Program-made: the position numbers and the translations under genes
Virus record (IMG/VR): IMGVR_UViG_3300020045_001434
Span: 1-64,000 of that record
Length of the DNA stretch: 64,000 nt
DNA from: a virus
Direction: 5' to 3' (one strand)
Part shown: piece after piece, positions 19,492 through 40,900 of the stretch
Numbering within the stretch: the first letter of the stretch is position 1
How the letters are laid out: each line of letters begins with the position of its first letter
Notes under the pieces: model-generated
Databases searched by the model: none
What the model saw: only the letters and a program-made list of their open reading frames with translations
Told to the model about the DNA's origin: nothing

Positions 19492-20014
19492 ACCCCTTAG
19501 TGAAATTCAAGCTGAATTAAAAGTTTGGACATTATATAATTTTGGTCAACAAGAATCTATTATACCTATTATGGGTATGATAGAAGAACTTGGTGAACTT
19601 ACTCATGCTCATTTAAAAGAACTTCAAGGTATTCGTAAAAGTGATTTCTTAGCTGATAAGAAAGATGCTATTGCAGATATAACTATTTATCTTTTAAATT
19701 ATTTTAATTGTATTGATAAAGATGTTTCTTTAATTGGTAGTAATGAACATTTAGATAGTTATATATATCATAATGATTCTACTAATATGATAATACTTAA
19801 ATTATCTTATAATATAAGTAATATAGGACATTATACATTTAGTGCTGAAAATATTATTAATTTAGCTATAAGCAAATGTTCTAAAACTTTATATTTATTA
19901 TCTTATTATGCTCTATTATATAATTTTGATTTACTTACTATTGTAAATGAAACTTGGGAAAATGTAAAACTTAGAGATTGGAAAAAATATCCTTTAAATG
20001 GAATATCTGAATGA
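19484..20014 (+). CDS. MazG-like nucleotide pyrophosphohydrolase
   Basis: EELGEL and DAIADITIYL all-alpha NTP-PPase motifs; C-terminal W..V..RDW. Confidence 0.82.
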   Translation: MNKPLSEIQAELKVWTLYNFGQQESIIPIMGMIEELGELTHAHLKELQGIRKSDFLADKKDAIADITIYLLNYFNCIDKDVSLIGSNEHLDSYIYHNDSTNMIILKLSYNISNIGHYTFSAENIINLAISKCSKTLYLLSYYALLYNFDLLTIVNETWENVKLRDWKKYPLNGISE

Positions 20015-20185
20015 AAACATATATTATAAATTAATTATTTTATGAATTTTATTATAACAGCAATTAAAATACTAGTACATAATATTACTCATAAAAATAG
20101 AGGTAATATATCTATATCTAAAAAAATATCTGAAACAGATGTTATATATACTATAACTATTAAACGTAAATAATATGAAGTAACT

Positions 20186-20479
20186 ATGAAAAGACTACGT
20201 AACCTAGTAGTTGAAATATTGAAGATGATAGATAATGGTGAATTTGAAGATGTAACTAATGAAGAATTAGAACTTATATCTATTATAATTCATCGTCCTA
20301 TTACTATGGGTCGTGAAGATGCCGCTAAATTTATGGGTGTGTCATTGTGTCGATTCCATGAGCTAAAAGACATGGGTATTATAGCCGAACCACGCAAGCG
20401 TAAGGGCTTTAAAGAAAAGGAGTACTATTTATCTGACTTACAAAAAGCCTTGATTACAAAGGCTGAGAGAGGGCTATAA
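20186..20479 (+). CDS. winged-HTH (excisionase/MerR-like) DNA-binding protein
   Basis: MGREDAAKFMGVSLCRFHELKDMGII.EPRKRKGFKEKEYYLSDL. Confidence 0.75.
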   Translation: MKRLRNLVVEILKMIDNGEFEDVTNEELELISIIIHRPITMGREDAAKFMGVSLCRFHELKDMGIIAEPRKRKGFKEKEYYLSDLQKALITKAERGL

Positions 20480-20507
20480 ATTCATTAGTATTCCGGCACG
20501 ATAATTT

Positions 20508-20550
20508 ATATATTTGAAGTACTAACAATTCCGTTAGTACTTAAATATAT
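20508..20550 (+). promoter_or_regulatory. promoter -7 element within an inverted repeat (candidate operator or leader hairpin)
   Basis: TATATTTG at 20509-20516; AAGTACTAAC-AATTCC-GTTAGTACTT stem extended by ATATATTT/AAATATAT. Confidence 0.6.
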
Positions 20551-20557
20551 TTATATT

Positions 20558-21319
20558 ATGGCTTTAACATTAGATGGTGCTCTACCTATGATTGGTGGAA
20601 CAAGTACTGGCTCAGGTGTCGGTATGGGTGCTTTAGGTGGTGGTGTTGCAGGTTTACTTCTTGGAGGTTTACTTAGTGGTAACAATGGTGGTTTATTTGG
20701 TGGTGGAGGTAACAATGCTAATCAAGCAGAGTTTAATTCTATCAATAATCAAATTCAAACTATTCAAGGTCAAATTGCTAATACAGCTTTGACTAGTCAA
20801 ATTAGAGCTGATACTATTGATTTATCTTCTAGTATTGGTAATTTAGGAACTCAAGTAGGTCAATTGGCTACTGCTCAAGCTGCTGCTAATTTTACTACTT
20901 TGGAATCTATTAATGGTTTAGGAAGAGATATTACTGCTTCTCAAAATCAAAATGCTCTTCAACAATTGAATAGCTTTAATCAACAAACAACTACTATGTT
21001 GCAAGGATTTAATTCTTCTGCAATGCAAGTTCAAAATTCTACTAATCAAATCATATCTCAGGGTACTGCTAATGCTGCTGCTGTTGCTTCTGGTTTCTGT
21101 GAAATTAGTAAAGAAATGGCTCAATGTTGTTGTGAAATGAAGGGGGCTATTGCTGCTGAAGGTAGTGCTACTCGTGCTCTTATTAATGATTTGAATGTTC
21201 AAAATCTTCGTGACCAACTTGCTGCTGCTAATAACAAAGTAAGTAATAATGAACAAAATCAATATTTGTTGAATACTATTTTGACACATATTGCTCCTAC
21301 AGCATCTACAGTAATTTAA
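20558..21319 (+). CDS. Gly-zipper / Q,N-rich coiled-coil protein with CCC motif, function unknown
   Basis: GSGVGMGALGGGVAGLLLGGLLSG; long Q/N/S/T heptad region; MAQCCCEMK; TRALINDLNVQNLRDQL. Confidence 0.8.
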   Translation: MALTLDGALPMIGGTSTGSGVGMGALGGGVAGLLLGGLLSGNNGGLFGGGGNNANQAEFNSINNQIQTIQGQIANTALTSQIRADTIDLSSSIGNLGTQVGQLATAQAAANFTTLESINGLGRDITASQNQNALQQLNSFNQQTTTMLQGFNSSAMQVQNSTNQIISQGTANAAAVASGFCEISKEMAQCCCEMKGAIAAEGSATRALINDLNVQNLRDQLAAANNKVSNNEQNQYLLNTILTHIAPTASTVI

Positions 21320-21328
21320 TCTAGTATT

Positions 21329-21625
21329 ATGACTAGTCCAATAAGTATAGGTACTACGGCTATAGTAGTCGCACCTATTAATAAAAGACGTAGCATAATT
21401 AGATTTCAGAATACTGGTAAAGATTCAATATTTATAAAGAAAATTCCTATTACTGGAAATACAAGTATTGTTTCTGATACTAATTTTGAAGTTGAATTAT
21501 TTCCCGAATCTGCTTCTTCTAAAGAAGGAGGTCAATCTTTTGAAACAAACTCTATTGCATCTTTTATGGCAATATCTAGTGCCGCAGGTAATGCTTTAGC
21601 AGTTTATGAAACTAATAAAGTATAA
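21329..21625 (+). CDS. small beta-sandwich-like protein
   Basis: Beta-rich, with NKRRSIIRFQNTGKDSIFI. Confidence 0.65.
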   Translation: MTSPISIGTTAIVVAPINKRRSIIRFQNTGKDSIFIKKIPITGNTSIVSDTNFEVELFPESASSKEGGQSFETNSIASFMAISSAAGNALAVYETNKV

Positions 21626-21643
21626 CCTCTAAATATAAATAAG

Positions 21644-21835
21644 ATGGAAGATTTTCATGTAAAAATACATATTACTAAAGTTATAGAAATGTGTATTACA
21701 GAAGAACGCGCTAGGATAAGGGAACACTATTCTAATACATTAGGTAAACAAACTGCTGACTATATGGACAATTATGTTCCAGTACCATCAGAAGTTCTTA
21801 AACTATTTGGTATTCTCACAGATACTCCAGTTTAA
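21644..21835 (+). CDS. hypothetical protein
   Basis: 63-aa ORF before the terminator. Confidence 0.6.
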   Translation: MEDFHVKIHITKVIEMCITEERARIREHYSNTLGKQTADYMDNYVPVPSEVLKLFGILTDTPV

Positions 21836-21849
21836 GAATCTTTAATATT

Positions 21850-21881
21850 AAGAGCAATAATTAATTTTATTGCTCTTTTTT
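21850..21881 (+). terminator. rho-independent terminator
   Basis: AAGAGCAATAA-TTAATT-TTATTGCTCTT plus T-tract. Confidence 0.8.
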
Positions 21882-21907
21882 AATGTCTAACAATTAATAT
21901 TTATATT

Positions 21908-22216
21908 ATGGAAAATGATATTTTAAAAACTCTAGATTTAGGTAAGACTCAAGTTCCTGCCAATGAAGCTATTAATGGAGGTACTCAACCTTTAGCAACA
22001 GCTAAACCAATTCTAAATTATCCTCGTAATGAAGAATTAATAATTCAATCTGTTATAACAAGTGAAGAACAAGGTTACGCTTTGCTTAGAGCTATTCAAA
22101 TAGTTGTGAATAGTTTTGGAGGAGATACTATAATTAAACTAGTAGACAAACTAGAGAAAAATCCTAAATTAGCTGATAAAGCTAAACAATATATACCTTT
22201 AATATTACAAATGTAA
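21908..22216 (+). CDS. hypothetical helical protein
   Basis: 102-aa ORF. Its leader ATATTTATATTATGG is identical to that of 20558. Confidence 0.65.
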   Translation: MENDILKTLDLGKTQVPANEAINGGTQPLATAKPILNYPRNEELIIQSVITSEEQGYALLRAIQIVVNSFGGDTIIKLVDKLEKNPKLADKAKQYIPLILQM

Positions 22217-22218
22217 CT

Positions 22219-23055
22219 ATGGCAATAATTGGCGTTTCAGGTAAAATCGGAAGTGGTAAAGATACTGTTGGAAGTGTTATACAATATCTTACATCAGTGT
22301 ATAAAAATGGATATTATGAAGGAGACATTAAATTTATGTCTAATAGACCTAATATTCATAAATATAGTTTTGAACAATGGAAAAATCATTCTGTTCCTAC
22401 TAATATAAGTGATTGGAAAATTAAAAAATATGCTGATAAACTTAAAGATATAGTTTGTATTCTTTTAAGTTGTACTCGTGAACAATTAGAAGATAGAGTA
22501 TTTAAAGAAACTAATCTTAGTAGTGAATGGGATTTATGGCAACTACATTATCGTAATTGGAATGATAAAATAGTAGAATCTTTTTATGTAACTAAAGAAG
22601 AAGCTATTAATGCGTATAATAGTTATATTGTAAATTATAGTTGTGATGAACCTAAATTAGTTTTTATGACACCTAGAAAGTTATTACAATTATTAGGTAC
22701 TGATTGTGGTAGAAAGATAATTCATCCTAATATTTGGGTTAATGCTACTATGATTAATTACAAAGATGAAACTAATAGAATAGTGTCTCCGTCTTTAGAA
22801 TATTATCCATCTAATTGGATTATTACAGATGTTAGATTTCCTAATGAAGCTAAAGCTATAACTGATAAAGGTGGAATTAATATTAGAATACAAAAACATA
22901 ATATGTTTGATGCTGCTATTAAATCTTTAGAATTAGAACATGAATCTGAAACTGCTTTAGATAATTATCAATTTGATTATGTAGTTAATCATGGTACTAT
23001 TGAAGCATTAATTGAACAAATTAGAGAAATACTTATTAAAGAAAATATTATATGA
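22219..23055 (+). CDS. deoxynucleoside monophosphate kinase (T4 gp1-like)
   Basis: GVSGKIGSGKDT, ADKLKD, TPRKLLQLLGTD, WIITDVRFPNE, HESE. Confidence 0.9.
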   Translation: MAIIGVSGKIGSGKDTVGSVIQYLTSVYKNGYYEGDIKFMSNRPNIHKYSFEQWKNHSVPTNISDWKIKKYADKLKDIVCILLSCTREQLEDRVFKETNLSSEWDLWQLHYRNWNDKIVESFYVTKEEAINAYNSYIVNYSCDEPKLVFMTPRKLLQLLGTDCGRKIIHPNIWVNATMINYKDETNRIVSPSLEYYPSNWIITDVRFPNEAKAITDKGGINIRIQKHNMFDAAIKSLELEHESETALDNYQFDYVVNHGTIEALIEQIREILIKENII

Positions 23056-28964: not shown

Positions 28965-31900
28965 TTATTGAGCAGCATTAACTATAGGATTATACATACC
29001 ATAATAACTAATACTAGAATTAAGATAAACTTGTTTATGCCATTGTCTATATCCAGGAATAGATTTTTCTATATCTATACCTATTTTACTTTGACCAGCA
29101 TACATACCTCGACTATAAACTCTTTCAGATTCATCTCTCCAAGGATATGCAAATGTGTCATATATTAGATTACTAATAGAACCTATTTGTCTTTCCATTG
29201 GAACAGTACTTTGTTTAGTACGTTTATAGAATTTAGCCCATCCATAATAAGGTAACATATCTACATATTCAGTTTGTAATCCTGATACTAAATTTACAAG
29301 AGAACTATAAGGTTTAAGTACACTATCATCTTCATCATCAGGGTCATAACCTTTACCAACTAAAAATAGTAAACCTGTTATAATTGTAAGATTAACAAAC
29401 ATATAAGCTGTACGTTTAAGATTAGCTCTTTCAACTGGACTTAAGTTGTTATATAAAAACTTATAGTTATGGAAGAAATCTCCATAAGCCTTAAATATAT
29501 CAACAAAAGCTTTTAAAGCAGGATTCTTTATATGAGCATCTTTAGCTTTATAATATTCAGCTAAAAAAGGTTGTTTAAAGAATTTCATTGTATCAGTAAA
29601 TGCTCCACTTCTATAATGATTTAATGCTTCATCGTGAGGTTGATTAGTACCTCTAGCTAATGGATTAATACTATACTTAACTCCCATGTATCTTATCCAT
29701 GTAGGTCGCATCCATTTTCTAAATTGAAAAGCAACTTGACCTAACATAGTAGCTTGTAAAGCACCTTTATCAAGAGTATTATAAATACCATGAATAGATT
29801 GATTTAGATACTTTACTCTATCAATAAAATAAGCTTCTACTTGACTAGTAATTAATGGATCTACAACAAGTTTACCAATACCTTCACCAGTTTCTTCAAA
29901 TTTATACATATCTAATACTTTCGTATATTTAGTATCAAATTTATTAGATGCTTCTTTTCTACGAGTATCATATATTTCATTGAATTTAGCAATAACCTCT
30001 TTAGGTATACTTCTATGATTCATTTCAGCCCAAACTTTAGCATGGTCAGTATATGAAAATTTATCTTTAGATTTAGATTTTTCAGTTTTTATAAATTCAT
30101 CTAAACTTTCTAATAATTTAGTAGGTAAGATTTCTTTATAAATTTGATATTTTACATCACCAATAAATTCTTCTCTTGACATAATAGCTCCATCTACAAA
30201 TCTATGAGAATGCATAAGAGTAAATAAAGTAGTATATTGTAACATATGTTCACCTGTAATTGTAGGCATATAAGCTAACATATCTGCAACATCTATAAAT
30301 TTACTTGCACTACCTCTAGTTTCTCTATCTATAGCTCCTTCTGTATGGTCATGATAAATGTCTGACATACGTTTAATAATAGCTACAAATTGATTAGGCA
30401 TTGCATTAGGGTCATTGTTATGAACATTAGCAATGATTGTAGATATATTACTCATATAAGTATTAAATCCTTTACCAAATTCTTTACGATTAGCATATTC
30501 ACCACCTTGATATTCAATAAACAAATCTGCCATACCTTTACTAACATTCTTTACACCACTATGAAAGTTAAACCACATAGTATTCATACTTGTTAATCTC
30601 ATACCAGAACCAAGTATTTGGTCAAATAGATTACTAGTATTAGATTTTAAAGATATTACTTCATCAAACTTATTATAAGATTTATATGTTTGAGTATCTT
30701 TACCTGATTTAGTAGCATATACAATATCTTTATTTTTTAAAGTATTAGATAACATTGTTCTAGTTTTATCTAGATAATCTTTACCGGCTGAATCTCTAAC
30801 TCTAGCTTTAAAGTTTTCACTACCTACTTCATTTCTAACAAGATTATATATTTGTTTAAAATCAGAATAAGATTTAATATTATATAGTTCTTCTATTAAA
30901 GCATTTAATACTGATGGTATATCATAGTTCATTTTATTTTGCATTTTAGCTGCAAACTTTTCTTTAACTACAGCATTATAAGCAAGTACATCTTCAAGTC
31001 TATCAAAACGTTCTACTCCAACTTCAACACCTTTATTTTTAAATTCTTGTAGTTTCTCATTAGCTTTATTCACAACATCTACTTGATATTCTTTTTGTGA
31101 TTCTTCATGAGTCTTATAACGAATATTAATAATATGTTTTACATCAGGAGCAGTAACATATCTAGATTGATAAAACCAACGTTTATTATTAAATACATCA
31201 GTTTCAATATGTTCTTCTTGTATATTAGTCCATCCAATAAACTTTTTAAATATATCTCCTATACTATGGCTAGTACTCATAAAAACATAAGGTGTAAAAT
31301 CTTCATCAAATATTTTATCAGGGAATACTTCTGCTACAATATTTTGAATAAGTCGTTTAGTATCTCTAAGAAATAACTTTTCTTGTTCTGATAAAACTGA
31401 ATATTCAGCAGATTCATATTTACTAATAGGTATAACCTTTTGTATAGTTATTCCTGTAAATTCAGGAGTAGTGTACATATAGTTTATAGTTTTATAATAA
31501 GATTTAGTATCAAATTTACTAATTAAATCTCCATCATTAATAACTATATGATGTCTTTTTTCAAACTTAGTTTTAAGTTCTTTATTAGCCCATAAACTTT
31601 GAGATATATAAACTTGCATGATTTGTTTATACATTTCATTATCTGAACCATCAGGATGTTGTCTATCTATATTTTCATAATAACCTAATTTATTTTCATC
31701 TAATGAATCAATATCTTTAGCATAATGACTAGCAGTTTTAGCATATAAATCTTTGATACCTACAAATTCATTATCCACTTGAATAAGAACATTATTACTT
31801 TTAGAGTTTAAATCTTTGTTAGTATAATCATCAGATTTATCTAATTTAAGTATAACATCATGACTAGAGCCTTCTGATTCAATTGTAACAAGTTTATAGT

Positions 31901-34900
31901 AATTAAAATTATTATCTAATGACGCATCAACAAATTTAGAATCCTCTAAGAATCCTTTAAGTTGTTCTTTAGATAATTGTTTCATTCTACCAATAGAATT
32001 TTCTATATATGTAGCAGGATAAGATGTTGTGTCAATAGTAGATTTTTTAGTTACTGAAAATGGTGAAAATGTATCTCCAATATTACTACCTTTGAATACA
32101 TAATCATATTTTAAAGTTATTTCACTAGCATAACTTCTTCCAGCTTTATACAATTGGGCAACATCAATGTATTTAGATTTAGCAGCATTAAACATTTTAA
32201 TATCGTCATCTATTTTTTTCCAATCATATTCAGATAATAAATTACCAGTTCTATGATTTACAAATTTACTTCTAATATAAGATTCTCTAGATTTATTATA
32301 TTCTAATTTAGTACCTTGTTTAAGAGTATCTTCATACTTCTTCAACATATCTTGAAGTTGTACAATTCTATCATTACGTTTACCTTGAACTTCAAGTCTA
32401 ATTTCAGACATCATAAACATAGAGTTATCAAGAAGTCCTACACCAGTTTGCCCCATAGAATCAAGTAGAGATTGAGTAGTAGTTATATCATCATTATACT
32501 GCATTACATGAATATATAAATCTGATAATTCTTCCGGACTTAAATCAGTACTTAACTTAGCATCAGGAATAGTATTTAATGATTCATTGTACTCTTTAAT
32601 TTTACCATATCTAGTAAGATTATTATATTTACCATTACGACTATATGGAAATACAATATGAGCCATATATTCTTGAACTTTAGCAGATATAGCTGTGTTA
32701 AGATAATCAATAGCTTTACCAGTTTTAATATCATCTACATTTAAGAAGTTACCATATAAAGGAGCACCACTACCATCTTTAGGAATATCTAATCTAATAT
32801 TTTCAATAGTTCTATTAAAAGCTTTTACCCATTTAAAAAGTTTATCAACTTCTATTTTGTTTTCATCATCTAATAAAGCATATTCTTCACTAGTAATATT
32901 AGGAACATTTATATTAGAAATAGCTAGAATTTTATCTGCTGCATAAAACATTTTTTTATAATCATATAATTTTGCAGCAATTTGAGATTTATATCCAGCA
33001 TTATTACTATTCATATATTTACCAATTTGTAATTGTAAAACATTTACACGTTCTACAGTACCATCAGGTTTATTAAATTGAATAAAATCAGTTTGAATAT
33101 ATTCAATAATCTTATGAAGTAATTGAATATTACTAGCCATAGCATCATCAATAGCATTTAATTGATTATCTGTTTCAGTCATTCTTTCAAGAGTATTCTG
33201 CATATCAGTAATAGCTAAACTGAATTGGTCAGGTCTAGTATTGTTCTCTCTTTTTAATTCATCAAACAAAGTTTTAGCTATAGAAGCAATTTCTAATTGT
33301 TTCTCTCTAAAATTATTAATATCCATTGTACTAGCATTAATAATATTTTTAGTTAGATGTGATTGGTCTAATATAGATGAACGTCTAATATTATCTTTCA
33401 CTCCAATCTCAATATATTCATTAGATTTATTACTAGTAATATTAGCTTTATAAATAGATTCTCCTACACCCATTTTAAAAATAGTTTTAATAGAATTAAA
33501 TCTATATAACATAGACATATTTCTAACAAATGGAATTATAGCAGTATCATATTGTTCTTGAGTATATTTACTATCTGAAATACTATCTCCTACAATAGCA
33601 ATATTATCATCTTCTGTAAGATTAATAGTTTTAAAGAACTCATGATTAAGTTTATCTAATGTTGTATATATAGTTTTATCAGATTTAAAATTACTTTTAT
33701 AAATACTATTTTCACCAATATAAATAACTTTATCTACAGAATCAATAATATCTTTAGCAGTTTCACTATGAGATTTATTAGATTTAGTTATAAGATTATT
33801 ATATGTATATATATCTTTATTTACAGTTTCTCCTAAGAAATTAGTAGTTTTAGATTCTACAACATTATATAATAATGATGATTTCCTAGGTTCTGATTTA
33901 GTTTGACTATTATCATATATATGAATCAAATCTTTATAATATTGTTCTGATTCATTATCACCTTTATATTTAGCAATTACAGTACTATCTTGAGTTTGTT
34001 CATCTTGAGTAGCAAATTCATAAGGTAGACTTTTAGTAACTGGAAAATAATAAACATTAGTACTACCAGGAATATCATATCTTTCAAGAACCATGACTTT
34101 AGTATTTGATATTTCAGGTATAGTTGTAGATACATATTTATATCTAGAAATATATGAAGTATCATTAGCTTCTAATTCTTGTACAATAATAGGATAAGCT
34201 TTTGCAGCATAAATACCACTATTAAATCCTAACGCTAAAGCATTCCCAAATTTATTTACTACTGGACTAATAGATTTATCTCCATGAAGTTGTGATTTAA
34301 GATATTTAGTCCATAATTCAATAGAATCTTTATCTAATTCATCATCATTCATTTGTTCATATTTACTTTCTAAATCTAATAGAGCTTCATTAGTTTTATA
34401 AAGTCTATTATGTTCAAGATTATCTTCCTCAGCAAACGTATTATAAGCATACGGGTTATTCTTTTCAGATTCTACTTGTGCTGAAATAATATCATATTCT
34501 TTAGATTTAGTAGTAAACAATGATGGGTCTATAATTTTAGATACATTAATACCCCATGCGAGACCATTAAAATAAAATGAATATCTAACTAAATCTCTAG
34601 CAGTTTGTCTAAGAAATGGATTCTCATTAAAAAACATATTCCTAAACGTTTGTTGAAGTTTAGCAATATCTTTAGAAGTATTAGACATATCTAGTTTATG
34701 ATAACCATTCTTTAAAAGATTATTCTTTTCTAACTTAGGGTCGAATAATTCTAATAAATCAGTAATATTATTCTTATCATTAATATTATATTTTGAAGTA
34801 AAATTATTAATATGATTTTTAAGAAGATATACTTGATTAGCTACAGATAAATTTCTATATTCTTGTAATGATAAATTCTGAGTATCAACTTTAATATCTG

Positions 34901-37900
34901 AAAATATTGAGCTTGTAGGTGTTGTTGTTTGACCGTCACGAACAGCATTTTCAACTGGCACTACTTTACCTACAACTCTCAAACGTTCAATACTACGCAT
35001 TAGAGGGCTGTTTGAATTACCATTGAAGAATGGAACACTATCATAAATATGTTCAGCAATTACAGTATCTAATATACGTTTATATATGTTCTTAGATGAT
35101 TTACTATACATATTACCCGATAGTCCTAATTCAGCCACTATACCCGTAACAAGAGCATTCATATTTGGATTTGAAGATAATAGTATCTTAGAAAATAGTT
35201 TAGTACTAAAATGATAATTATTTACAAATTGAGATTCAAAATAAGGTAGACTACTTTTAGTAAAATCATAATCATCGGCTAGTGTTCCTTTAACTACATT
35301 GGGAAATACTGATTCCATTAAAGTTTTATCTCCAACTTTTAAACCACTTTTAGGTATGCTTAATTTTACTTGAGCAAAGTTTTTAATATCACTATTACTA
35401 TCAATTGCAAATTTACCTTTACGTAATTCACTATCTTCATGTTCACCTATTTTAAATATTGAATTGTATTCTTCTATAACCTCTTTAAGAATTTCTTCTT
35501 TACCACTAAGACTATTAGTAGAATCATATAAATATTTAATATTTTGTTTCTCTTTAATACTAAATCCAGCTTCAGTTAATTGAGATTCAAATTCACTATA
35601 ATCAATATATAGATTAGCCATATCACTAATAAGTTTAATAGTAGTATAACTATCAGGTGAAGTACCTAACTTATCAGTTCTTAATACTAAAGATGATTTA
35701 GTAATTAAATTACTAGTTTTATCATATTGTTGATATAATTTAAATATAGATATTTGTTCATCTAAAAAGTTTACATAATCTATTATAGATTTAGTATCCT
35801 CATGTTGACTAACATCCATATTGTAAGTACCATTCTTTATACTATTTGTATAAATATCATGAAGTTCGTCTATAGATTTATAAGCATTTTCATCAGTAAT
35901 TTTAATCTTACCTTTATCAGTTGTAAATACACTAGTATTAGTAAATTCACTAACTTTTAAATTATCAAATAAACTTTGTATTTGAGATTGATTTTCTTCA
36001 AATAAAGTTTCTATCTGTAATTGTGTATCTGCATCAGAAATATCATTTATAAAACTATATAGATTAGCTTTAAGATTATCAGTATCTTTAGCAAATTTAA
36101 TAAGTTCTGAAAATACAATATCTGTAGATATTCCAGTAGTATCATACATAAATATTTGTTCACCATTAATCATGGCTTTTTTCCATTTATCTACTTTAGC
36201 AGAAATAGCTCTAGCTTTAATATCTTCAGGATTATTAGAACTAGTACTTACTGTTACAGAAGTTTTATGTATAAATAAATCTAGTATAGATATAGCTTGT
36301 GGATTAGTAGTTAACTTACCAGTAAGCAAACTTATATTATTTAGATTATTTAATATACTAACTCTTGTATTATTTACAATATTTCTATAAGCCTTATTTT
36401 TATCAGCATATGAATCTGAACGTTTAGATTCATTTATTAAAGATATAAATTTAGATACTATAGGTTGATGAATAATAAGATTAGAATATGCGAATGAATT
36501 AGGAGTTCTAGAATTATCTTTACTATATAAATTTGTATTATGTGATACTGGAAGATTTGCAAGTAAATCTAATACACCACTAGTAGTACCATTTATATTA
36601 TGCCCCATTTTCTCTTTTACAGCATCAAGAACATTTGCTGCAATTTCAGATGATTGTTCAGTAATATATTGACCTTGTATATTCTTCCAACTATTAGATT
36701 TATTATTAGCTAAATGAGAATTAAATATCACATATCTAGCTTCTGAAGTTTCAGTAGCAGGTTGATATAACCATGATTTATTTTCATCACCAATTAATTC
36801 ATTCAATACTTTACGATGTTCATGAATATCTCCAGTAGGCATTTCAGATTCTGTAATAACTATTGGAATAGCAAATTCATTACTAACATTAGCATTAACT
36901 ACACCTAATAATGAATAAGTATTTTGACTAGCAATAACAATACCTTTAAGTTCAGCAACAGTTTTATTTAATGATGTGATTCTATTTCTATCTAATATAT
37001 TTGTAAAGTTTAAAGTAGAATTAGATATACCCATTTCATTATTTATTCCTTGAGATACTTTAGATATATTATTAAATTCATTTACTTTCTCTCTAAATAT
37101 ATTAGAATCTTCACTAATAACTCTAGCCATTAAAGAATCAATAATCATATTTTCTCTAGTTTCTTTAGTCATTTGTTGTAGTACTGGAAGTTGATTATAT
37201 CCATCACTTACTTCTTTAGACATTAAAAAATCAGAAACTTTATTGTCATAATCATTATTAATAGATTCAATTTGATTATTCAAATCTTCTGTAAGGACTT
37301 TATTTCCTACACTTTTTTCTTTAGCTAATAAGAATAATAAATTTTTAGTTTGAGCACTAGTTAAGTCTTTAGATTCTAAGAAATCTTTAATAGTAGTTTT
37401 ATTACTAGGGTCTAAAGTTCTTTCGATAGCATCCTGAAGTTCTAATAAAAATTCATCATATTCTTTATTATAAGTATCATCTAAAGCATTATCATACTTA
37501 TCAACTACATCTACTATACTAGAAGTATGGTCTTGAGTGATATCTCTAATTTTAGATATAACTTCTTTATATTTAGAATCATTAGGATTATCTCTAATTT
37601 CATCCAATATATCTCTAGTAGTATTTAAAGCATCATCATGTAAATCTTCTAACTTAGATTTATATTCATCTCTAGCTTTAAAGATTAATGCTTTTCTAGC
37701 TAGTTCTAAATTATTATATTCATTAAGAAAATAAGTTTTTACATAATTAATACGTTTATTAGTTTCAGTATTATGAATATCTTTGTTTTTAGGATTAATA
37801 TCATATTCGTAAGAAATAGGATATAATTGTCCATCAGCACGTTCATAAAGATGTCTAGTATAAATATAAATAGTATCAATATCATAATCCCAACCAGTAC

Positions 37901-40900
37901 GTTTAGATAAGTGTTTTGGAACCATTATCTGAGAAGAACTATTATTCATAAAACCAACTACTTCTGCAACAAACGATGATTGCATACCTTCATGAGGAAT
38001 ACGTGTAGCATAAACAGTTCTTGATTCTTTGGGAATTTTATTAATGTCTATCTTACGAATTTTATTTACTACACCTTTATTGTCAGTAACATATTCATAA
38101 GTAGCATATTTATCAAATCTACTATCCCAAATATTTAATACTATTTCAGCAGGTAAATTCTTACTAGGATTATTAGGGTCTGGTCTTTCAGCTCGAAGTT
38201 CCCAATTTAATTTATCTTGTTGTTCAGCAATAAATTCATCAGTCATAGACATCATACCTTTAGTACGGTATTCATTTATACTATCAAAACCTTCAATATC
38301 CTTTTCACCATATTTATAATCAATAGGTTGCATAAAAACATCAGGTAAAATAGTTCCATGTATCTGAGGAAGTTCAAGATTTACATTACTATTAGTAATA
38401 GATGCTTGAAGTATATTTTCAATAACTCCTTTAATAGTAGGATGATTTAATGACATAAGTTTATCATTACTATTTTCCATTGCAGAAAAAGCTTCCATTA
38501 AAGATATATCTTCATTGTTAGCATAATAACGACGAATGATTTGTCTTACTTTATCAGTATCAATAAGAATATCTCCTTTACCATCATGTAGAATTTTACC
38601 ATTCTTCATAGCACCAAAAGAATATATTAATCTATCTCTACCCTCAGCAAGAATATGATGAAGTGCAGCATGTCTATTTTCAAATAGTCCACGTTTACCT
38701 TCTTCATAATTATTAGTTCTACCTTTATAAGGAACACCATTTACTTCAAATATAGAATCATTGTTTAGATTAACATCAGTTTTCTTATTTGCTTGTGTAG
38801 ATATTTTACCACGTTTCTCCATAGTATGAGAAACTTGTTCTTGTTGTATTCTAAGATTATTACGTTTAAAACGAATAACATAATCTTGCATATTTACAGG
38901 TTTTCCATTAATAGTAGTATCAATAGTTTGAATCCCATCAACTTCTTTAGTTCTTAGTTCATAACCATTACTAATTCTATTACCAGTTTCTGTATCAACT
39001 TTAGTAAATATATCATGTAATCTAAATGTAGGTACTGAAAGTTTAGAACTTGATTTAAAATTTATTTGGTCAATTTTATTATCATTCATAAACTGAGTAA
39101 GAACTTCAAGTTTAGTTCCTATAAATAGTTTAGGAAATAGAACCATAGTACTATTTTTCTCTTGATAAGAACTAACATTACCAGTAAATAAACCATTAGT
39201 TTCAGTTTGTCTGCTATACATGAAGTATTTCAACTGCTCTACAATTGTGTAGAAATCACTAGGATTTAACGCAGTTTTAGGGTCTGTGAGAGCATCAATA
39301 TACTTTTTCATACCTTTGTAATGGTTGGTACTTTTAGCTCGTTTAATGAACTCCTCTACAGTTATAAAAGATAATCCATTACCAACTTCAATAGCATCAC
39401 CATATTGAGCCATTAAAAATTCTTTAGATAAACCTTTAGCATTAGAAAGTTCATCTAGCATATTAGATGCTGTCCATACATCTTCAACAGTTACAGAAGA
39501 ATATGTTTCAGTGTCCATATTAGTAATACCACTACGAATGATTTCACTAACACGTTTATTTATATCATCAAAATGTTTGTATTCATATTGACGACCATAA
39601 AGTAAATCTTCACCAACATTAATAGACGTAATATAATCATTAATGAAAGATTCCATCATAGCTTTATTATATTGAGCTATAACTTCTTTGTCTTTAGTTC
39701 TACTATAATCATCTTGTTTAGTAGAATCATTAGTGTCTTGTTCTTCTAATGTTAGAATTGTTTTATGAGTTGATATAATATTAGCACCAGTCTTTCCTTT
39801 ATTAATTTCTAGTTCAGATGTACCAGGAACATAAGGAGGAATAGTATCTGTTATCATCATCATTAAATCTTTAGCAATACCTTGAGTATTATCAATCATA
39901 TATTTTTGATTGTTCTCAATATATCCATCTATAAATTCATAAACAATATTATCAAATACAGTTTTAGCTAATTGAATATCCTCATTTAAAAGTTTAGCAG
40001 TCATATAACTAGCTTTCTGTTCTGTAGAAAGTTTATTATATTCATTTACTGGAATTATATTACTATAATTACCATCACTATCAGTTTTAGAATTTACTAT
40101 AATAGGATGAGTTTCTTTAGTTAGTCTATTTACTAAAGCTATTAAATCTAATTGTGTAGATTCAGAACCTAAGTATTTTTTAGCATAATCTTCTAATGTA
40201 ATCTTTTTACCATTAGAATTAAAACTCATTCTAAGAAATTTAAAAACTTGACCAGTAGGAAGTCCTTTATCTAATATAATAGCTTTACCTTTAATTTCTT
40301 TACCATTATTATTGTTATCATATTTTGACTTAGTAAATTTACCATTAAAATCTCTAACATTATGTAAAGTACCAGCATCACCTTTTTCTTGAATACCATC
40401 TTGTAAAGAAATACTTTTTACATATCTAGTACCTGATTCAGTAAAAGCATATTGATATTGTAACATTCCCTTAGAAGCTATTTGCATAGAAACAACTTCT
40501 CCCATAATAGTTCTTTTAAGAGCTGCTATAGGTTTAGATGATTTATAGTTTTGTTCATAAGCTTTTTTAAGCTCATGATTATTAGCTATAAGTTTAGCAG
40601 GATTATCTAAATAGCTTTGTACATTAGATTTAAGTGTTATAAGGTCTGCTGCATGAATAATACTATCTCTAACACCATTATTGAAAACTAATTCAAATGG
40701 TAAGAAAGGAGTTACTCCACTCATAGATGGTAGATATAACATTGTATTATCATAGAACTTACTAATAAATTCTTTATTTTTAGATATAACATCTTGTTTA
40801 GGAAGATTTAATAAATATCTATATATATCACTTAATGCTTTTTCATAAGTATCTGGATTATCAGATTCTAAATTATTAGATATTAATTCATTTACAGCAG

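What the first reader, a model, noticed from the sequence alone, without database searches (positions are those of the whole stretch)
20186..22216. Self-contained cassette: wHTH, operator-like palindrome, Gly-zipper/CCC coiled-coil protein, beta-sandwich and small partners
Seen in sequence: inside the nucleotide-metabolism region sit a wHTH gene and a Bacteroidota -7 promoter element embedded in a long inverted repeat (20508-20550). Next come a 253-aa low-charge protein (GxxxG zipper, Q/N-rich heptads, CCC, C-terminal coiled coil) with high-expression codons, a 98-aa beta protein, a 63-aa ORF, a strong terminator and a 102-aa ORF. The 102-aa gene shares the leader ATATTTATATTATGG with the 253-aa gene. 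I recall similar Gly-rich/CCC proteins as uncharacterised in Bacteroidota and Bacillota phages. Inference: an independently regulated module making a membrane-inserting or fibre/amyloid-like oligomer with a beta-sandwich partner. Possible roles are superinfection exclusion, host dormancy, or a non-virion structure.
Basis: partly seen in the sequence, partly recalled or inferred. Interest (0 to 1): 0.75.

Follow-up and report, generated by a model that had tools for sequence, protein, structure and literature searches.

The report
Mobile triple-cysteine membrane-rod phage cassette
A real, self-regulated five-gene add-on unit in a crAss-like phage. Its main product is a probably membrane-anchored helical rod with an invariant Cys-Cys-Cys motif, from a very widespread but uncharacterised phage family (phage T5 gene T5.077 is a member). 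It is dispensable in T5 and is not a standard virion or lysis part.

Summary
Genes 20186-22216 (HTH, 253-aa Gly-rich/CCC helical protein, 98-aa jelly-roll, 63-aa and 102-aa proteins) are real. They recur in the same order in 22 viral contigs whose flanks do not match.

The host genomes are very distant Crassvirales: capsid identity is 24% or undetectable, while the cassette proteins are 40-81% identical. The cassette is also a GC island. It has therefore moved horizontally.

A Bacteroidota -7 box overlapped by a palindrome precedes the 253-aa gene in most loci. The stem sequence differs from locus to locus, and TTAGT half-sites are enriched. This fits an operator for the adjacent HTH_17-type regulator.

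The 253-aa protein belongs to a family of at least 484 clusters that includes T5.077, eiAU P858_08, PY100 ORF29 and Clostridium perfringens phage genes. A viable T5 deletion removes the T5.077 promoter and its 5' half. crAss001 and phi14:2 lack the family.

Charge distribution favours a short N-tail outside the cell and the rod in the cytoplasm, where the signal-less partners would sit.

Best reading: a mobile, moron-like, host-directed membrane module, possibly for exclusion or competition. The biochemical function is unknown.

This scan has found the same cassette family repeatedly on other DNA. Here I re-tested the T5.077 link and dispensability, and checked the C39 lead only in part.

The parts
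20015..20185 (+). Left junction of the cassette, including a 43-aa ORF (20042-20173) with no support
   Evidence: Related wastewater contigs share MazG and then diverge at 20012. The ORF has no homologue in the other loci.
20186..20479 (+). 97-aa HTH regulator (HTH_17 / excisionase-MerR type at the family level)
   Evidence: Conserved upstream of the lead gene in most loci at 43-77% identity. 4 of 9 homologues hit PF12728, best E 4e-6. It has the highest GC3 in the genome, 0.289.
20481..20490 (+). Conserved upstream element TTCATTAGTA, about 20 nt before the -7 box; candidate regulator site
   Evidence: AAATTCATTAGT-like sequence is conserved in the alignment of upstream regions. Together with TAnnTTTG it occurs only here and at one coincidental site in the genome.
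20509..20516 (+). Bacteroidota-type -7 promoter box TATATTTG
   Evidence: TAnnTTTG lies 36-62 nt before the ATG in 9 of 11 loci examined.
20508..20550 (.). Long inverted repeat overlapping the -7 box and the expected transcription start; candidate operator with two TTAGT/ACTAA half-sites
   Evidence: z -6.4. Equivalent hairpins with different inner stems occur in 8 of 9 loci. Half-sites: 18 observed against 4.25 expected.
20558..21319 (+). 253-aa lead protein: short acidic N-tail, Gly-rich hydrophobic segment (~23-39), Gln/Asn-rich helices, invariant CCC (190-192), conserved C-terminal helices
   Evidence: 237 close homologues; 484 clusters by profile search; alignment A1; phrog_9288 at 1.6e-7; T5.077 at E 4.2e-9.
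21329..21625 (+). 98-aa jelly-roll / cupin-like beta-sandwich partner with no signal peptide
   Evidence: AF2 pLDDT 89.9. BFVD hits to small uncharacterised phage proteins, E down to 7e-5. PDB best Z 8.6, PM2 spike P1, which is a generic match. 35 homologues.
21644..21835 (+). 63-aa conserved helical protein
   Evidence: Present in all complete loci, 37-56% identity by alignment and 42-58% by local tblastn. No family or PDB match.
21850..21882 (+). Intrinsic terminator or attenuator (11-bp stem plus T run)
   Evidence: A gap of 47-79 nt between the 63-aa and 102-aa genes exists only in a subset of loci; elsewhere the two genes are 4-13 nt apart.
21897..21911 (+). Second exact copy of the leader ATATTTATATTATGG
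21908..22216 (+). 102-aa conserved protein (variable N-terminus, conserved helical C-terminal part); last cassette gene here
   Evidence: Present in all complete loci, 38-66% identity. No family or PDB match. Relatives re-join the window sequence at about 22225.

Best explanation
This is one copy of a mobile, moron-like accessory operon of the T5.077 / phrog_9288 'CCC' family.

Regulation. The 97-aa HTH is most likely read through from the upstream genes. It then acts on TTAGTA-type sites around a host-type (TAnnTTTG) promoter that has no obvious -33 element. This control gives a burst of transcript covering the 253-, 98- and 63-aa genes. A hairpin terminator lets less transcript through into the 102-aa gene.

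Products. The 253-aa protein inserts into the host cytoplasmic membrane through its Gly-rich hydrophobic segment. Its short acidic N-tail faces outward, and the long Gln/Asn-rich helical rod with the invariant CCC motif stays in the cytoplasm, probably as an oligomer. The signal-less jelly-roll and the two small helical proteins bind it there.

Role. The assembly acts on the infected cell rather than on the virion. The most plausible role is to modify the membrane or entry zone in order to exclude or out-compete other phages or mobile elements.

Shown: the genes, their co-inheritance, horizontal spread, family membership, dispensability of the T5 member, and absence from model crAss virions.

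Inferred: membrane insertion, topology, oligomeric state, regulation by the HTH, and the biological role.
For: - Co-inheritance with unrelated flanks in 22 loci.
- Capsid identity of 24% or undetectable against 40-81% for cassette proteins.
- GC island and atypical codon usage in four of the five genes.
- Close relatives share MazG and dNMP kinase but diverge exactly at 20012 and about 22225.
- The cassette sits behind the capsid gene in L012, beside tail fibres and an endolysin in L022, and in the nucleotide-metabolism arm here.
- Promoter plus palindrome is conserved, with changing stems and enriched half-sites.
- HTH_17 hits among the HTH homologues.
- Family breadth, with no fused forms.
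- Homology of the CCC core with the subfamily whose cultured representatives are Clostridium perfringens phages: 99.8% probability.
- True TM segments in distant members. The N-tail lacks K/R in 155 of 219 proteins, and the C-flank has at least one K/R in 151 of 219.
- The T5.077-079 unit is a plus-strand island with an annotated promoter and terminator.
- The viable T5Mos deletion 30661-38625 removes that promoter and 562 nt of T5.077 (PMC11464382; coordinates checked).
- The canonical endolysin with TM neighbours lies at 81.7-82.9 kb of the same genome.
Against: - No experiment or transcript data exist for any member, and no RNA run holds this stretch.
- In the crAss-type proteins the hydrophobic segment is very Gly-rich (mean Kyte-Doolittle 1.5-1.9) and has almost no flanking charge. 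Both membrane insertion and topology are therefore uncertain for this copy.
- The AF2 monomer model is poor, so the 'rod' is only a secondary-structure statement.
- The position directly behind the capsid gene in some crAss genomes, capsid-like codon usage, a jelly-roll resembling a phage spike domain, and the eiAU copy next to tail genes would also fit a virion add-on.
- Very strong sequence conservation is unusual for exclusion proteins.
- Whether the HTH activates or represses is unknown.
Confidence: 0.5

Rival explanations
1. Optional virion add-on: a coiled-coil stalk (253 aa) with a jelly-roll knob (98 aa), attached to the capsid or tail as an accessory fibre. The small proteins would act as assembly helpers.
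For: - In L012 and L006 the cassette follows the Crass_capsid gene directly, without its own HTH.
- In eiAU the homologue follows the host-specificity and tail-fibre genes.
- Best PDB matches of the 98-aa fold include the PM2 spike P1 and Ena pilus subunits.
- The Gln/Asn/Ser/Thr-rich, low-charge helices resemble fibre sequences.
- T-ending codon bias equals that of the capsid gene.
Against: - The cassette has moved between phages whose capsid proteins are 24% identical or less, without changing much.
- It sits in early or nucleotide-metabolism regions here, in T5 and in C. perfringens phages.
- The T5 member is dispensable.
- The family is absent from crAss001 and phi14:2 and has no sequence match to any solved virion chain.
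- Distant members carry classical TM helices.
- The fold Z of 8.6 lies within the generic range.
Confidence: 0.13
2. Lysis-related module: a spanin-, holin- or fusion-like protein (hydrophobic Gly-rich peptide, two helical regions, Cys cluster) that disrupts or fuses envelope membranes, or times lysis.
For: - The architecture recalls i-spanins and class I fusion proteins.
- In L022 the cassette lies between small TM proteins and a GH24 endolysin.
- Conserved cysteines could make intermolecular disulfides, as in Rz/Rz1.
Against: - No partner has a signal peptide or lipobox.
- The N-tail lacks the K/R expected of an N-in/C-out signal anchor.
- The family occurs in Gram-positive phages, which need no spanin.
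- This genome has its endolysin and TM neighbours 60 kb away.
- The T5 member is dispensable for plaque formation.
- There is no Pfam or PHROG lysis hit.
Confidence: 0.07
3. Processed or exported product. The conserved N-terminus (MALTLDG...P-x-hydrophobic-G-G) would be a double-glycine-type leader, cut by a C39-type peptidase or exporter. This would release a Gly-rich, microcin-like protein that acts on neighbouring cells.
For: - The N-terminal motif is strongly conserved: 81 of 228 proteins start with M(A)LTLDG.
- The Gly-rich hydrophobic stretch resembles class II microcins (my recollection, not tested).
- Bacteroides and E. coli encode C39 exporters (controls).
Against: - No C39 domain is present in this genome or in five other cassette-bearing records.
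- The hydrophobic residue sits at -3, not at the canonical -4.
- A 200-aa coiled-coil cargo is atypical.
- Gly-Gly pairs are expected by chance in a Gly-rich segment.
Confidence: 0.05
4. The 20508-20550 repeat is not an operator. It would be an RNA element: a 5' stabilising stem-loop of the cassette mRNA, or a terminator for the HTH transcript.
For: - Strong fold, z -6.4.
- Stems differ between loci while pairing is kept.
- In L016 a similar ACTAAC...GTTAGT hairpin with a T run sits upstream of the promoter like a terminator.
Against: - The outer stem uses the TTTG of the -7 box. Transcription is expected to start about 6-7 nt after that box (general knowledge of Bacteroides promoters), so the transcript would lack most of the 5' arm.
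- No T run follows the hairpin in the window.
- A third TTAGTA copy lies outside the hairpin.
Confidence: 0.25

Closest known systems
T5.077-T5.078-T5.079 operon of phage T5, with eiAU P858_08-11 and PY100 ORF29-32; PHROGs 9288, 16490 and 8119, all 'unknown function'
   Same: - The lead protein is homologous: A1 profile against T5.077 gives E 4.2e-9, and phrog_9288 gives 1.6e-7.
- The architecture is the same: Gly-rich hydrophobic segment, helical region, and CCC followed by E-x-K.
- The unit is autonomous, with its own promoter and terminator, set among unrelated genes.
   Different: - The partners differ. T5 has a poly-Gln protein and a Cys-rich peptide. Here there is a jelly-roll, two small helical proteins and a dedicated HTH with a palindromic promoter.
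- T5.077 also has a 70-aa acidic N-terminal extension.
Phage morons (lambda bor and lom, HK97 gp15)
   Same: A transcriptionally autonomous accessory unit inserted between conserved genes. It is variably present among relatives and has a different base composition.
   Different: - Classical morons are expressed from prophages. This phage and most other carriers look virulent.
- This unit has five genes and carries its own regulator.
phi29 p16.7 and ZipA/EzrA-type N-terminally anchored cytoplasmic coiled-coil proteins (comparison from my own knowledge)
   Same: Proposed topology (short N-tail or none outside, one TM, cytoplasmic coiled coil). For p16.7, also early expression and dispensability.
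   Different: - There is no sequence or fold evidence of relationship.
- The protein has almost no basic residues, so a DNA-binding role like that of p16.7 is unlikely.
Two-component spanins (lambda Rz/Rz1)
   Same: A bitopic protein with a long helical domain and conserved cysteines.
   Different: There is no lipoprotein partner, no positively charged N-terminus and no link to the endolysin in this genome. The family also occurs in Gram-positive phages and is dispensable in T5.

Membership tests
T5.077 / phrog_9288 'CCC' protein family | Significant profile similarity over the C-terminal core | tested here: met
   phrog_9288 at 1.6e-7. A1 profile finds T5.077 at E 4.2e-9, PY100 ORF29 at 2.2e-13 and 17DYC at 1.7e-10. 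hhalign A1 vs A7 gives 99.8%.
T5.077 / phrog_9288 'CCC' protein family | Invariant Cys-Cys-Cys followed by a conserved G-x-x-T-R-x-L-I and L-R-D segment | tested here: met
   C190-C192, T205, R206, L208, I209, L217, R218 and D219 are invariant in 26 sequences. The CCC is also invariant in 20 distant members.
T5.077 / phrog_9288 'CCC' protein family | Hydrophobic, Gly-flanked segment about 20-40 residues from the N-terminus | tested here: met
   Median start at residue 24. 172 of 228 members have mean Kyte-Doolittle above 1.6; the window copy scores 1.75.
Phage moron / autonomous accessory unit | Own promoter and terminator | tested here: inconclusive
   Consensus promoter box and terminator are predicted and conserved, but there are no transcript data. 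In T5 the promoter P12 and the terminator are annotated.
Phage moron / autonomous accessory unit | Present or absent among related genomes, in different genomic positions | tested here: met
HTH_17 (PF12728) DNA-binding proteins, for the 97-aa gene | Match to the family model | tested here: inconclusive
   The window copy has no hit at E up to 1. 4 of 9 aligned homologues hit with best E 4e-6. phrog_668 'HTH DNA binding protein' scores E 0.067.
Two-component spanin | Outer-membrane lipoprotein partner with a lipobox; N-in/C-out anchor; linkage to the lysis genes | tested here: not met
   No partner starts with a signal peptide or lipobox (sequences). The N-tail lacks K/R in 155 of 219 proteins. 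The endolysin lies at 82443-82886 of the genome.
Crassvirales virion proteins | Sequence similarity to a solved or annotated virion component; presence in the model phages | tested here: not met
   No PDB chain matched any of the five profiles. The family is absent from phi14:2, and crAss001 gives only a 13-bit low-complexity match. This does not exclude a lineage-specific add-on.
Double-glycine-leader (class II bacteriocin/microcin) precursors | C39 peptidase or exporter in the locus, and the canonical leader consensus | tested here: inconclusive
   No PF03412 in this genome or in five other records. A hydrophobic-G-G motif is present but in a different register. A host exporter cannot be excluded.
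Jelly-roll / cupin-like beta-sandwich, for the 98-aa gene | Eight-strand double-sheet fold | tested here: met
   AF2 pLDDT 89.9 with 8 strands. VIA Z 8.6-7 to PM2 P1, cupins and Ena1B. This is at fold level only and shows no homology.

The most novel reading that the evidence does not exclude
The CCC proteins are the core of a previously unrecognised, portable phage organelle. It would be a membrane-anchored cytoplasmic rod whose nine-or-more clustered thiols (three per chain in an oligomer) bind a metal or cross-link. Exchangeable partner proteins would be recruited to it. Virulent phages of Gram-negative, Bacteroidota and Gram-positive hosts would all use it to control what enters or survives in the infected cell, whether by exclusion of rival phages or neutralisation of a membrane-associated defence.
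Probability: 0.12. Interest if true: 0.85.

Novelty: new variant of a known kind. Interest (0 to 1): 0.58.

Why it matters
The lead protein belongs to one of the larger phage protein families that has no name, no Pfam model and no published function: at least 484 clusters at 50% identity. It is conserved far better than capsid proteins across phages that share almost nothing else. It occurs in crAss-like gut and wastewater phages and also in tractable laboratory phages (T5, PY100, eiAU and Clostridium perfringens phages).

That combination makes an unknown and apparently general phage-host or phage-phage interaction directly testable. A viable T5 strain already lacks the gene's promoter and 5' half. 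The crAss variant adds a compact regulator-operator pair that could serve as a Bacteroidota expression switch.

Tried and rejected
- blastn of the cassette against cultured phages found nothing. tblastn of the 98-aa and 102-aa proteins also found nothing.
- Pfam, NCBIfam and PADLOC gave no credible hit for any cassette protein. The 0.05-0.06 E-value hits of the 102-aa protein (Saf_2TM, DS41_1) are far below their cut-offs and were dismissed.
- PDB sequence searches with five profiles found only chance coiled-coil matches.
- The ESM Atlas gave only unnamed viral clusters for the 253-aa protein and nothing for the 102-aa protein.
- The AF2 monomer of the 253-aa protein was too poor for a fold search.
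- The species-representative genome scan found a single short MAG contig. The family is therefore not a common prophage or bacterial gene there.
- Sequencing runs: no RNA holder is listed. The 'RNA-Seq' wastewater contigs are probably DNA and do not cover the cassette, so there is no evidence on expression.
- The beta partner of the Clostridium-type cassettes is not detectably homologous to the 98-aa protein.
- DUF7841 and the multi-TM upstream gene accompany the cassette in other loci but are absent from this genome.
- Literature searches for crAss-like plus glycine-rich plus coiled-coil, for DUF7841 and for T5.077 returned nothing.
- The alignment of distant members was too diverse for a locus scan.
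- NC_024711 is not in the phage collection.
Full report
**What the window is.** The window is the first 64 kb of a 90,928-bp viral record with 26% GC and a 121-bp terminal overlap. Three features mark it as a crAss-like phage:
- giant minus-strand genes of 4956 and 2694 aa;
- a capsid-portal-terminase block at 73-81 kb;
- the cassette's relatives lie on contigs that carry the Crassvirus capsid family.

The finding lies in the plus-strand arm between ThyX, a MazG-like gene and a dNMP kinase.

**The observation.** All five ORFs exist as described.
- *Inverted repeat.* The 20508-20550 repeat is real and folds far better than shuffles, -15.6 kcal/mol with z -6.4. It overlaps TATATTTG at 20509-20516.
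- *Terminator and leader.* The terminator at 21850-21877 has an 11-bp stem and a T run. The 15-mer leader occurs exactly twice in the window, at the starts of the 253-aa and 102-aa genes.
- *253-aa protein.* It has 31 Gly, 54 Gln+Asn and only 20 charged residues, with CCC at 190-192.
- *98-aa protein.* It folds confidently (pLDDT 89.9) as an eight-strand jelly-roll. It resembles many small uncharacterised phage proteins in BFVD. In the PDB it matches PM2 spike P1, cupins and Ena pilus subunits at Z of about 8, which is in the generic range.
- *Codon usage.* The 'high-expression codon' claim holds only partly. T-ending four-fold codons make up 79%, as in the capsid gene, but MazG is alike and Nc and the CAI-like index are unremarkable.

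**Co-occurrence and mobility.** In 22 IMG/VR loci the HTH, the lead protein, the jelly-roll, the 63-aa gene and the 102-aa gene appear in the same order. None of the window's flanking genes match in those loci.
- *Variable position.* In L012 and L006 the cassette lacks the adjacent HTH and directly follows the capsid gene. In L022 it lies between tail-fibre-like genes, small TM proteins and a GH24 endolysin. In L018 it sits in a 213-kb genome.
- *Conservation against the backbone.* The window's capsid protein is 24% identical to that of L012 and not detectably similar to those of G002 and G003. The lead protein is 61-81% identical, the HTH 64-77% and the jelly-roll 41-67%.
- *Composition.* The cassette is a GC island, 0.31-0.355 against 0.19-0.26 in the flanks. 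The HTH gene has the highest GC3 of the genome, and the three small genes have low capsid-referenced CAI.
- *Boundaries.* Wastewater contigs related to this phage share MazG and the kinase but diverge at 20012 and re-join near 22225. One contig carries the whole cassette at about 90% identity.

Together these show a unit that has moved horizontally among very distant Crassvirales. Other loci add a multi-TM gene upstream and a DUF7841 gene downstream. Both are missing from this genome.

**Regulation.**
- TAnnTTTG lies 36-62 nt before the lead gene in 9 of 11 loci.
- In 8 of the 9 loci folded, a hairpin pairs the TTTG of the box with a downstream AAAA. The inner stems differ in sequence.
- Transcription from such a box should start a few bases after it (general knowledge of Bacteroides promoters). 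The transcript would then lack most of the 5' arm, which favours a DNA-level palindrome.
- A conserved AAATTCATTAGT element lies about 20 nt upstream of the box, where a -33 element would be expected.
- TTAGT/ACTAA half-sites are enriched in the 100 nt upstream of the gene, 18 observed against 4.25 expected.
- Four of nine HTH homologues hit HTH_17.

I infer that the HTH is the cassette's own regulator. Whether it activates or represses is open. An RNA role for the hairpin remains a live rival.

The terminator before the 102-aa gene exists only in some loci. It probably tunes expression rather than bounding the unit.

**The lead protein family.**
- *Size.* Close homologues number 237 or more. 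A profile search finds 484 clusters at E up to 1e-3, all 59-355 aa and with no fused forms.
- *Conserved core.* The core is the CCC motif and the C-terminal helices.
- *Distant members.* They have unmistakable TM helices at the position of the Gly-rich segment, and often Cys/Gly-rich tails.
- *Cultured carriers.* These are Edwardsiella eiAU, Yersinia PY100 and relatives, Aeromonas phiWae15, Enterobacter BHUENT, three Clostridium perfringens phages and T5. In PY100 and T5 the gene heads a small plus-strand island among minus-strand genes. In the Clostridium phages it lies in the early region before ThyX.
- *T5.* Earlier notes of this scan gave the T5.077 lead, and I confirmed it at E 4.2e-9. 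The published viable strain T5Mos carries the deletion 30661-38625 (PMC11464382). Those coordinates fit NC_005859. The deletion therefore removes promoter P12 and the first 562 nt of T5.077, so a family member is dispensable for plaque formation.
- *Model crAss phages.* crAss001 and phi14:2 lack the family, and no solved virion chain matches any cassette protein.

**Topology.** Across 219 full-length members the N-tail has no Lys or Arg in 155, while the 25 residues after the hydrophobic segment have at least one in 151. The C-flank has more positive residues than the N-tail in 108 proteins against 21.

A signal anchor that exports a 200-aa domain would be expected to have a positive N-region. 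The data therefore favour a short N-tail outside and the rod in the cytoplasm. That agrees with the lack of signal peptides in all the partners. This is an inference and is weakest for the nearly uncharged crAss-type copies.

**Interpretation.**
- The best-supported reading is a mobile, separately regulated accessory operon that builds a membrane-anchored helical assembly acting on the infected cell. Exclusion or competition is the most plausible role, but none is shown.
- The virion add-on reading keeps some weight. It is supported by the position behind the capsid gene, the jelly-roll fold and the eiAU context.
- A lysis role is unlikely. The endolysin lies elsewhere in this genome, the family occurs in Gram-positive phages, there is no lipoprotein partner, and the T5 member is dispensable.
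- A double-glycine-leader reading is speculative. No C39 peptidase was found here or in five other records.

**Novelty.** The family and the cassette are undescribed in the literature I could search. The T5, PY100 and eiAU genes have long been annotated as hypothetical, and this scan has reported the cassette several times on other DNA.

- a quantified contrast with capsid divergence;
- the exact insertion boundaries;
- the half-site analysis of the promoter;
- the family-wide charge argument for topology;
- a literature-anchored check of dispensability.

Noticed in passing
L012:70-2640: The portal gene of this 93-kb crAss-like contig matches the portal family only in its C-terminal part. It also carries Hint and LAGLIDADG homing-endonuclease domains, so it probably holds an intein.
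   Followed up: no
L023:4751-5668: A 305-aa gene is inserted between the HTH gene and the cassette promoter. The conserved upstream element stays with the promoter, not with the HTH gene. By eye the protein starts like a PAPS-reductase-type enzyme; this was not tested.
   Followed up: no
genome 81728-82886 (outside the window): Probable lysis block on the minus strand: a 147-aa protein with an M15-peptidase-like start, flanked by a 134-aa protein with a signal-like N-terminus and a 130-aa TM protein. This is judged by eye only.
   Followed up: no
window 20012 and ~22225: Several wastewater contigs share MazG and the dNMP kinase at 85-95% identity but carry unrelated sequence between them. Close relatives appear to hold something else, or nothing, at this site.
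   Followed up: partly
window 20042-20173: A 43-aa ORF lies inside the left junction. It has no homologue in the related loci and is probably not a gene.
   Followed up: partly
L026:4121-4787, L039:4286-4931, L041:4479-4959, L044:4112-4700, L046:4290-4854: In the Clostridium-type and gut-phage cassettes, two low-complexity genes precede the CCC gene: one of about 110-160 aa, then a Gln/Met/Asn-rich one of about 70-90 aa that recalls T5.078. A beta-rich protein of 119-202 aa follows the CCC gene in L026, L039 and L041 only. This suggests a second recurrent cassette layout.
   Followed up: partly
L038 (crAss001 42353-42595): An 860-aa crAss001 ORF gives a 13-bit match to the Gly-rich part of the profile only. 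This is probably low complexity rather than homology.
   Followed up: no
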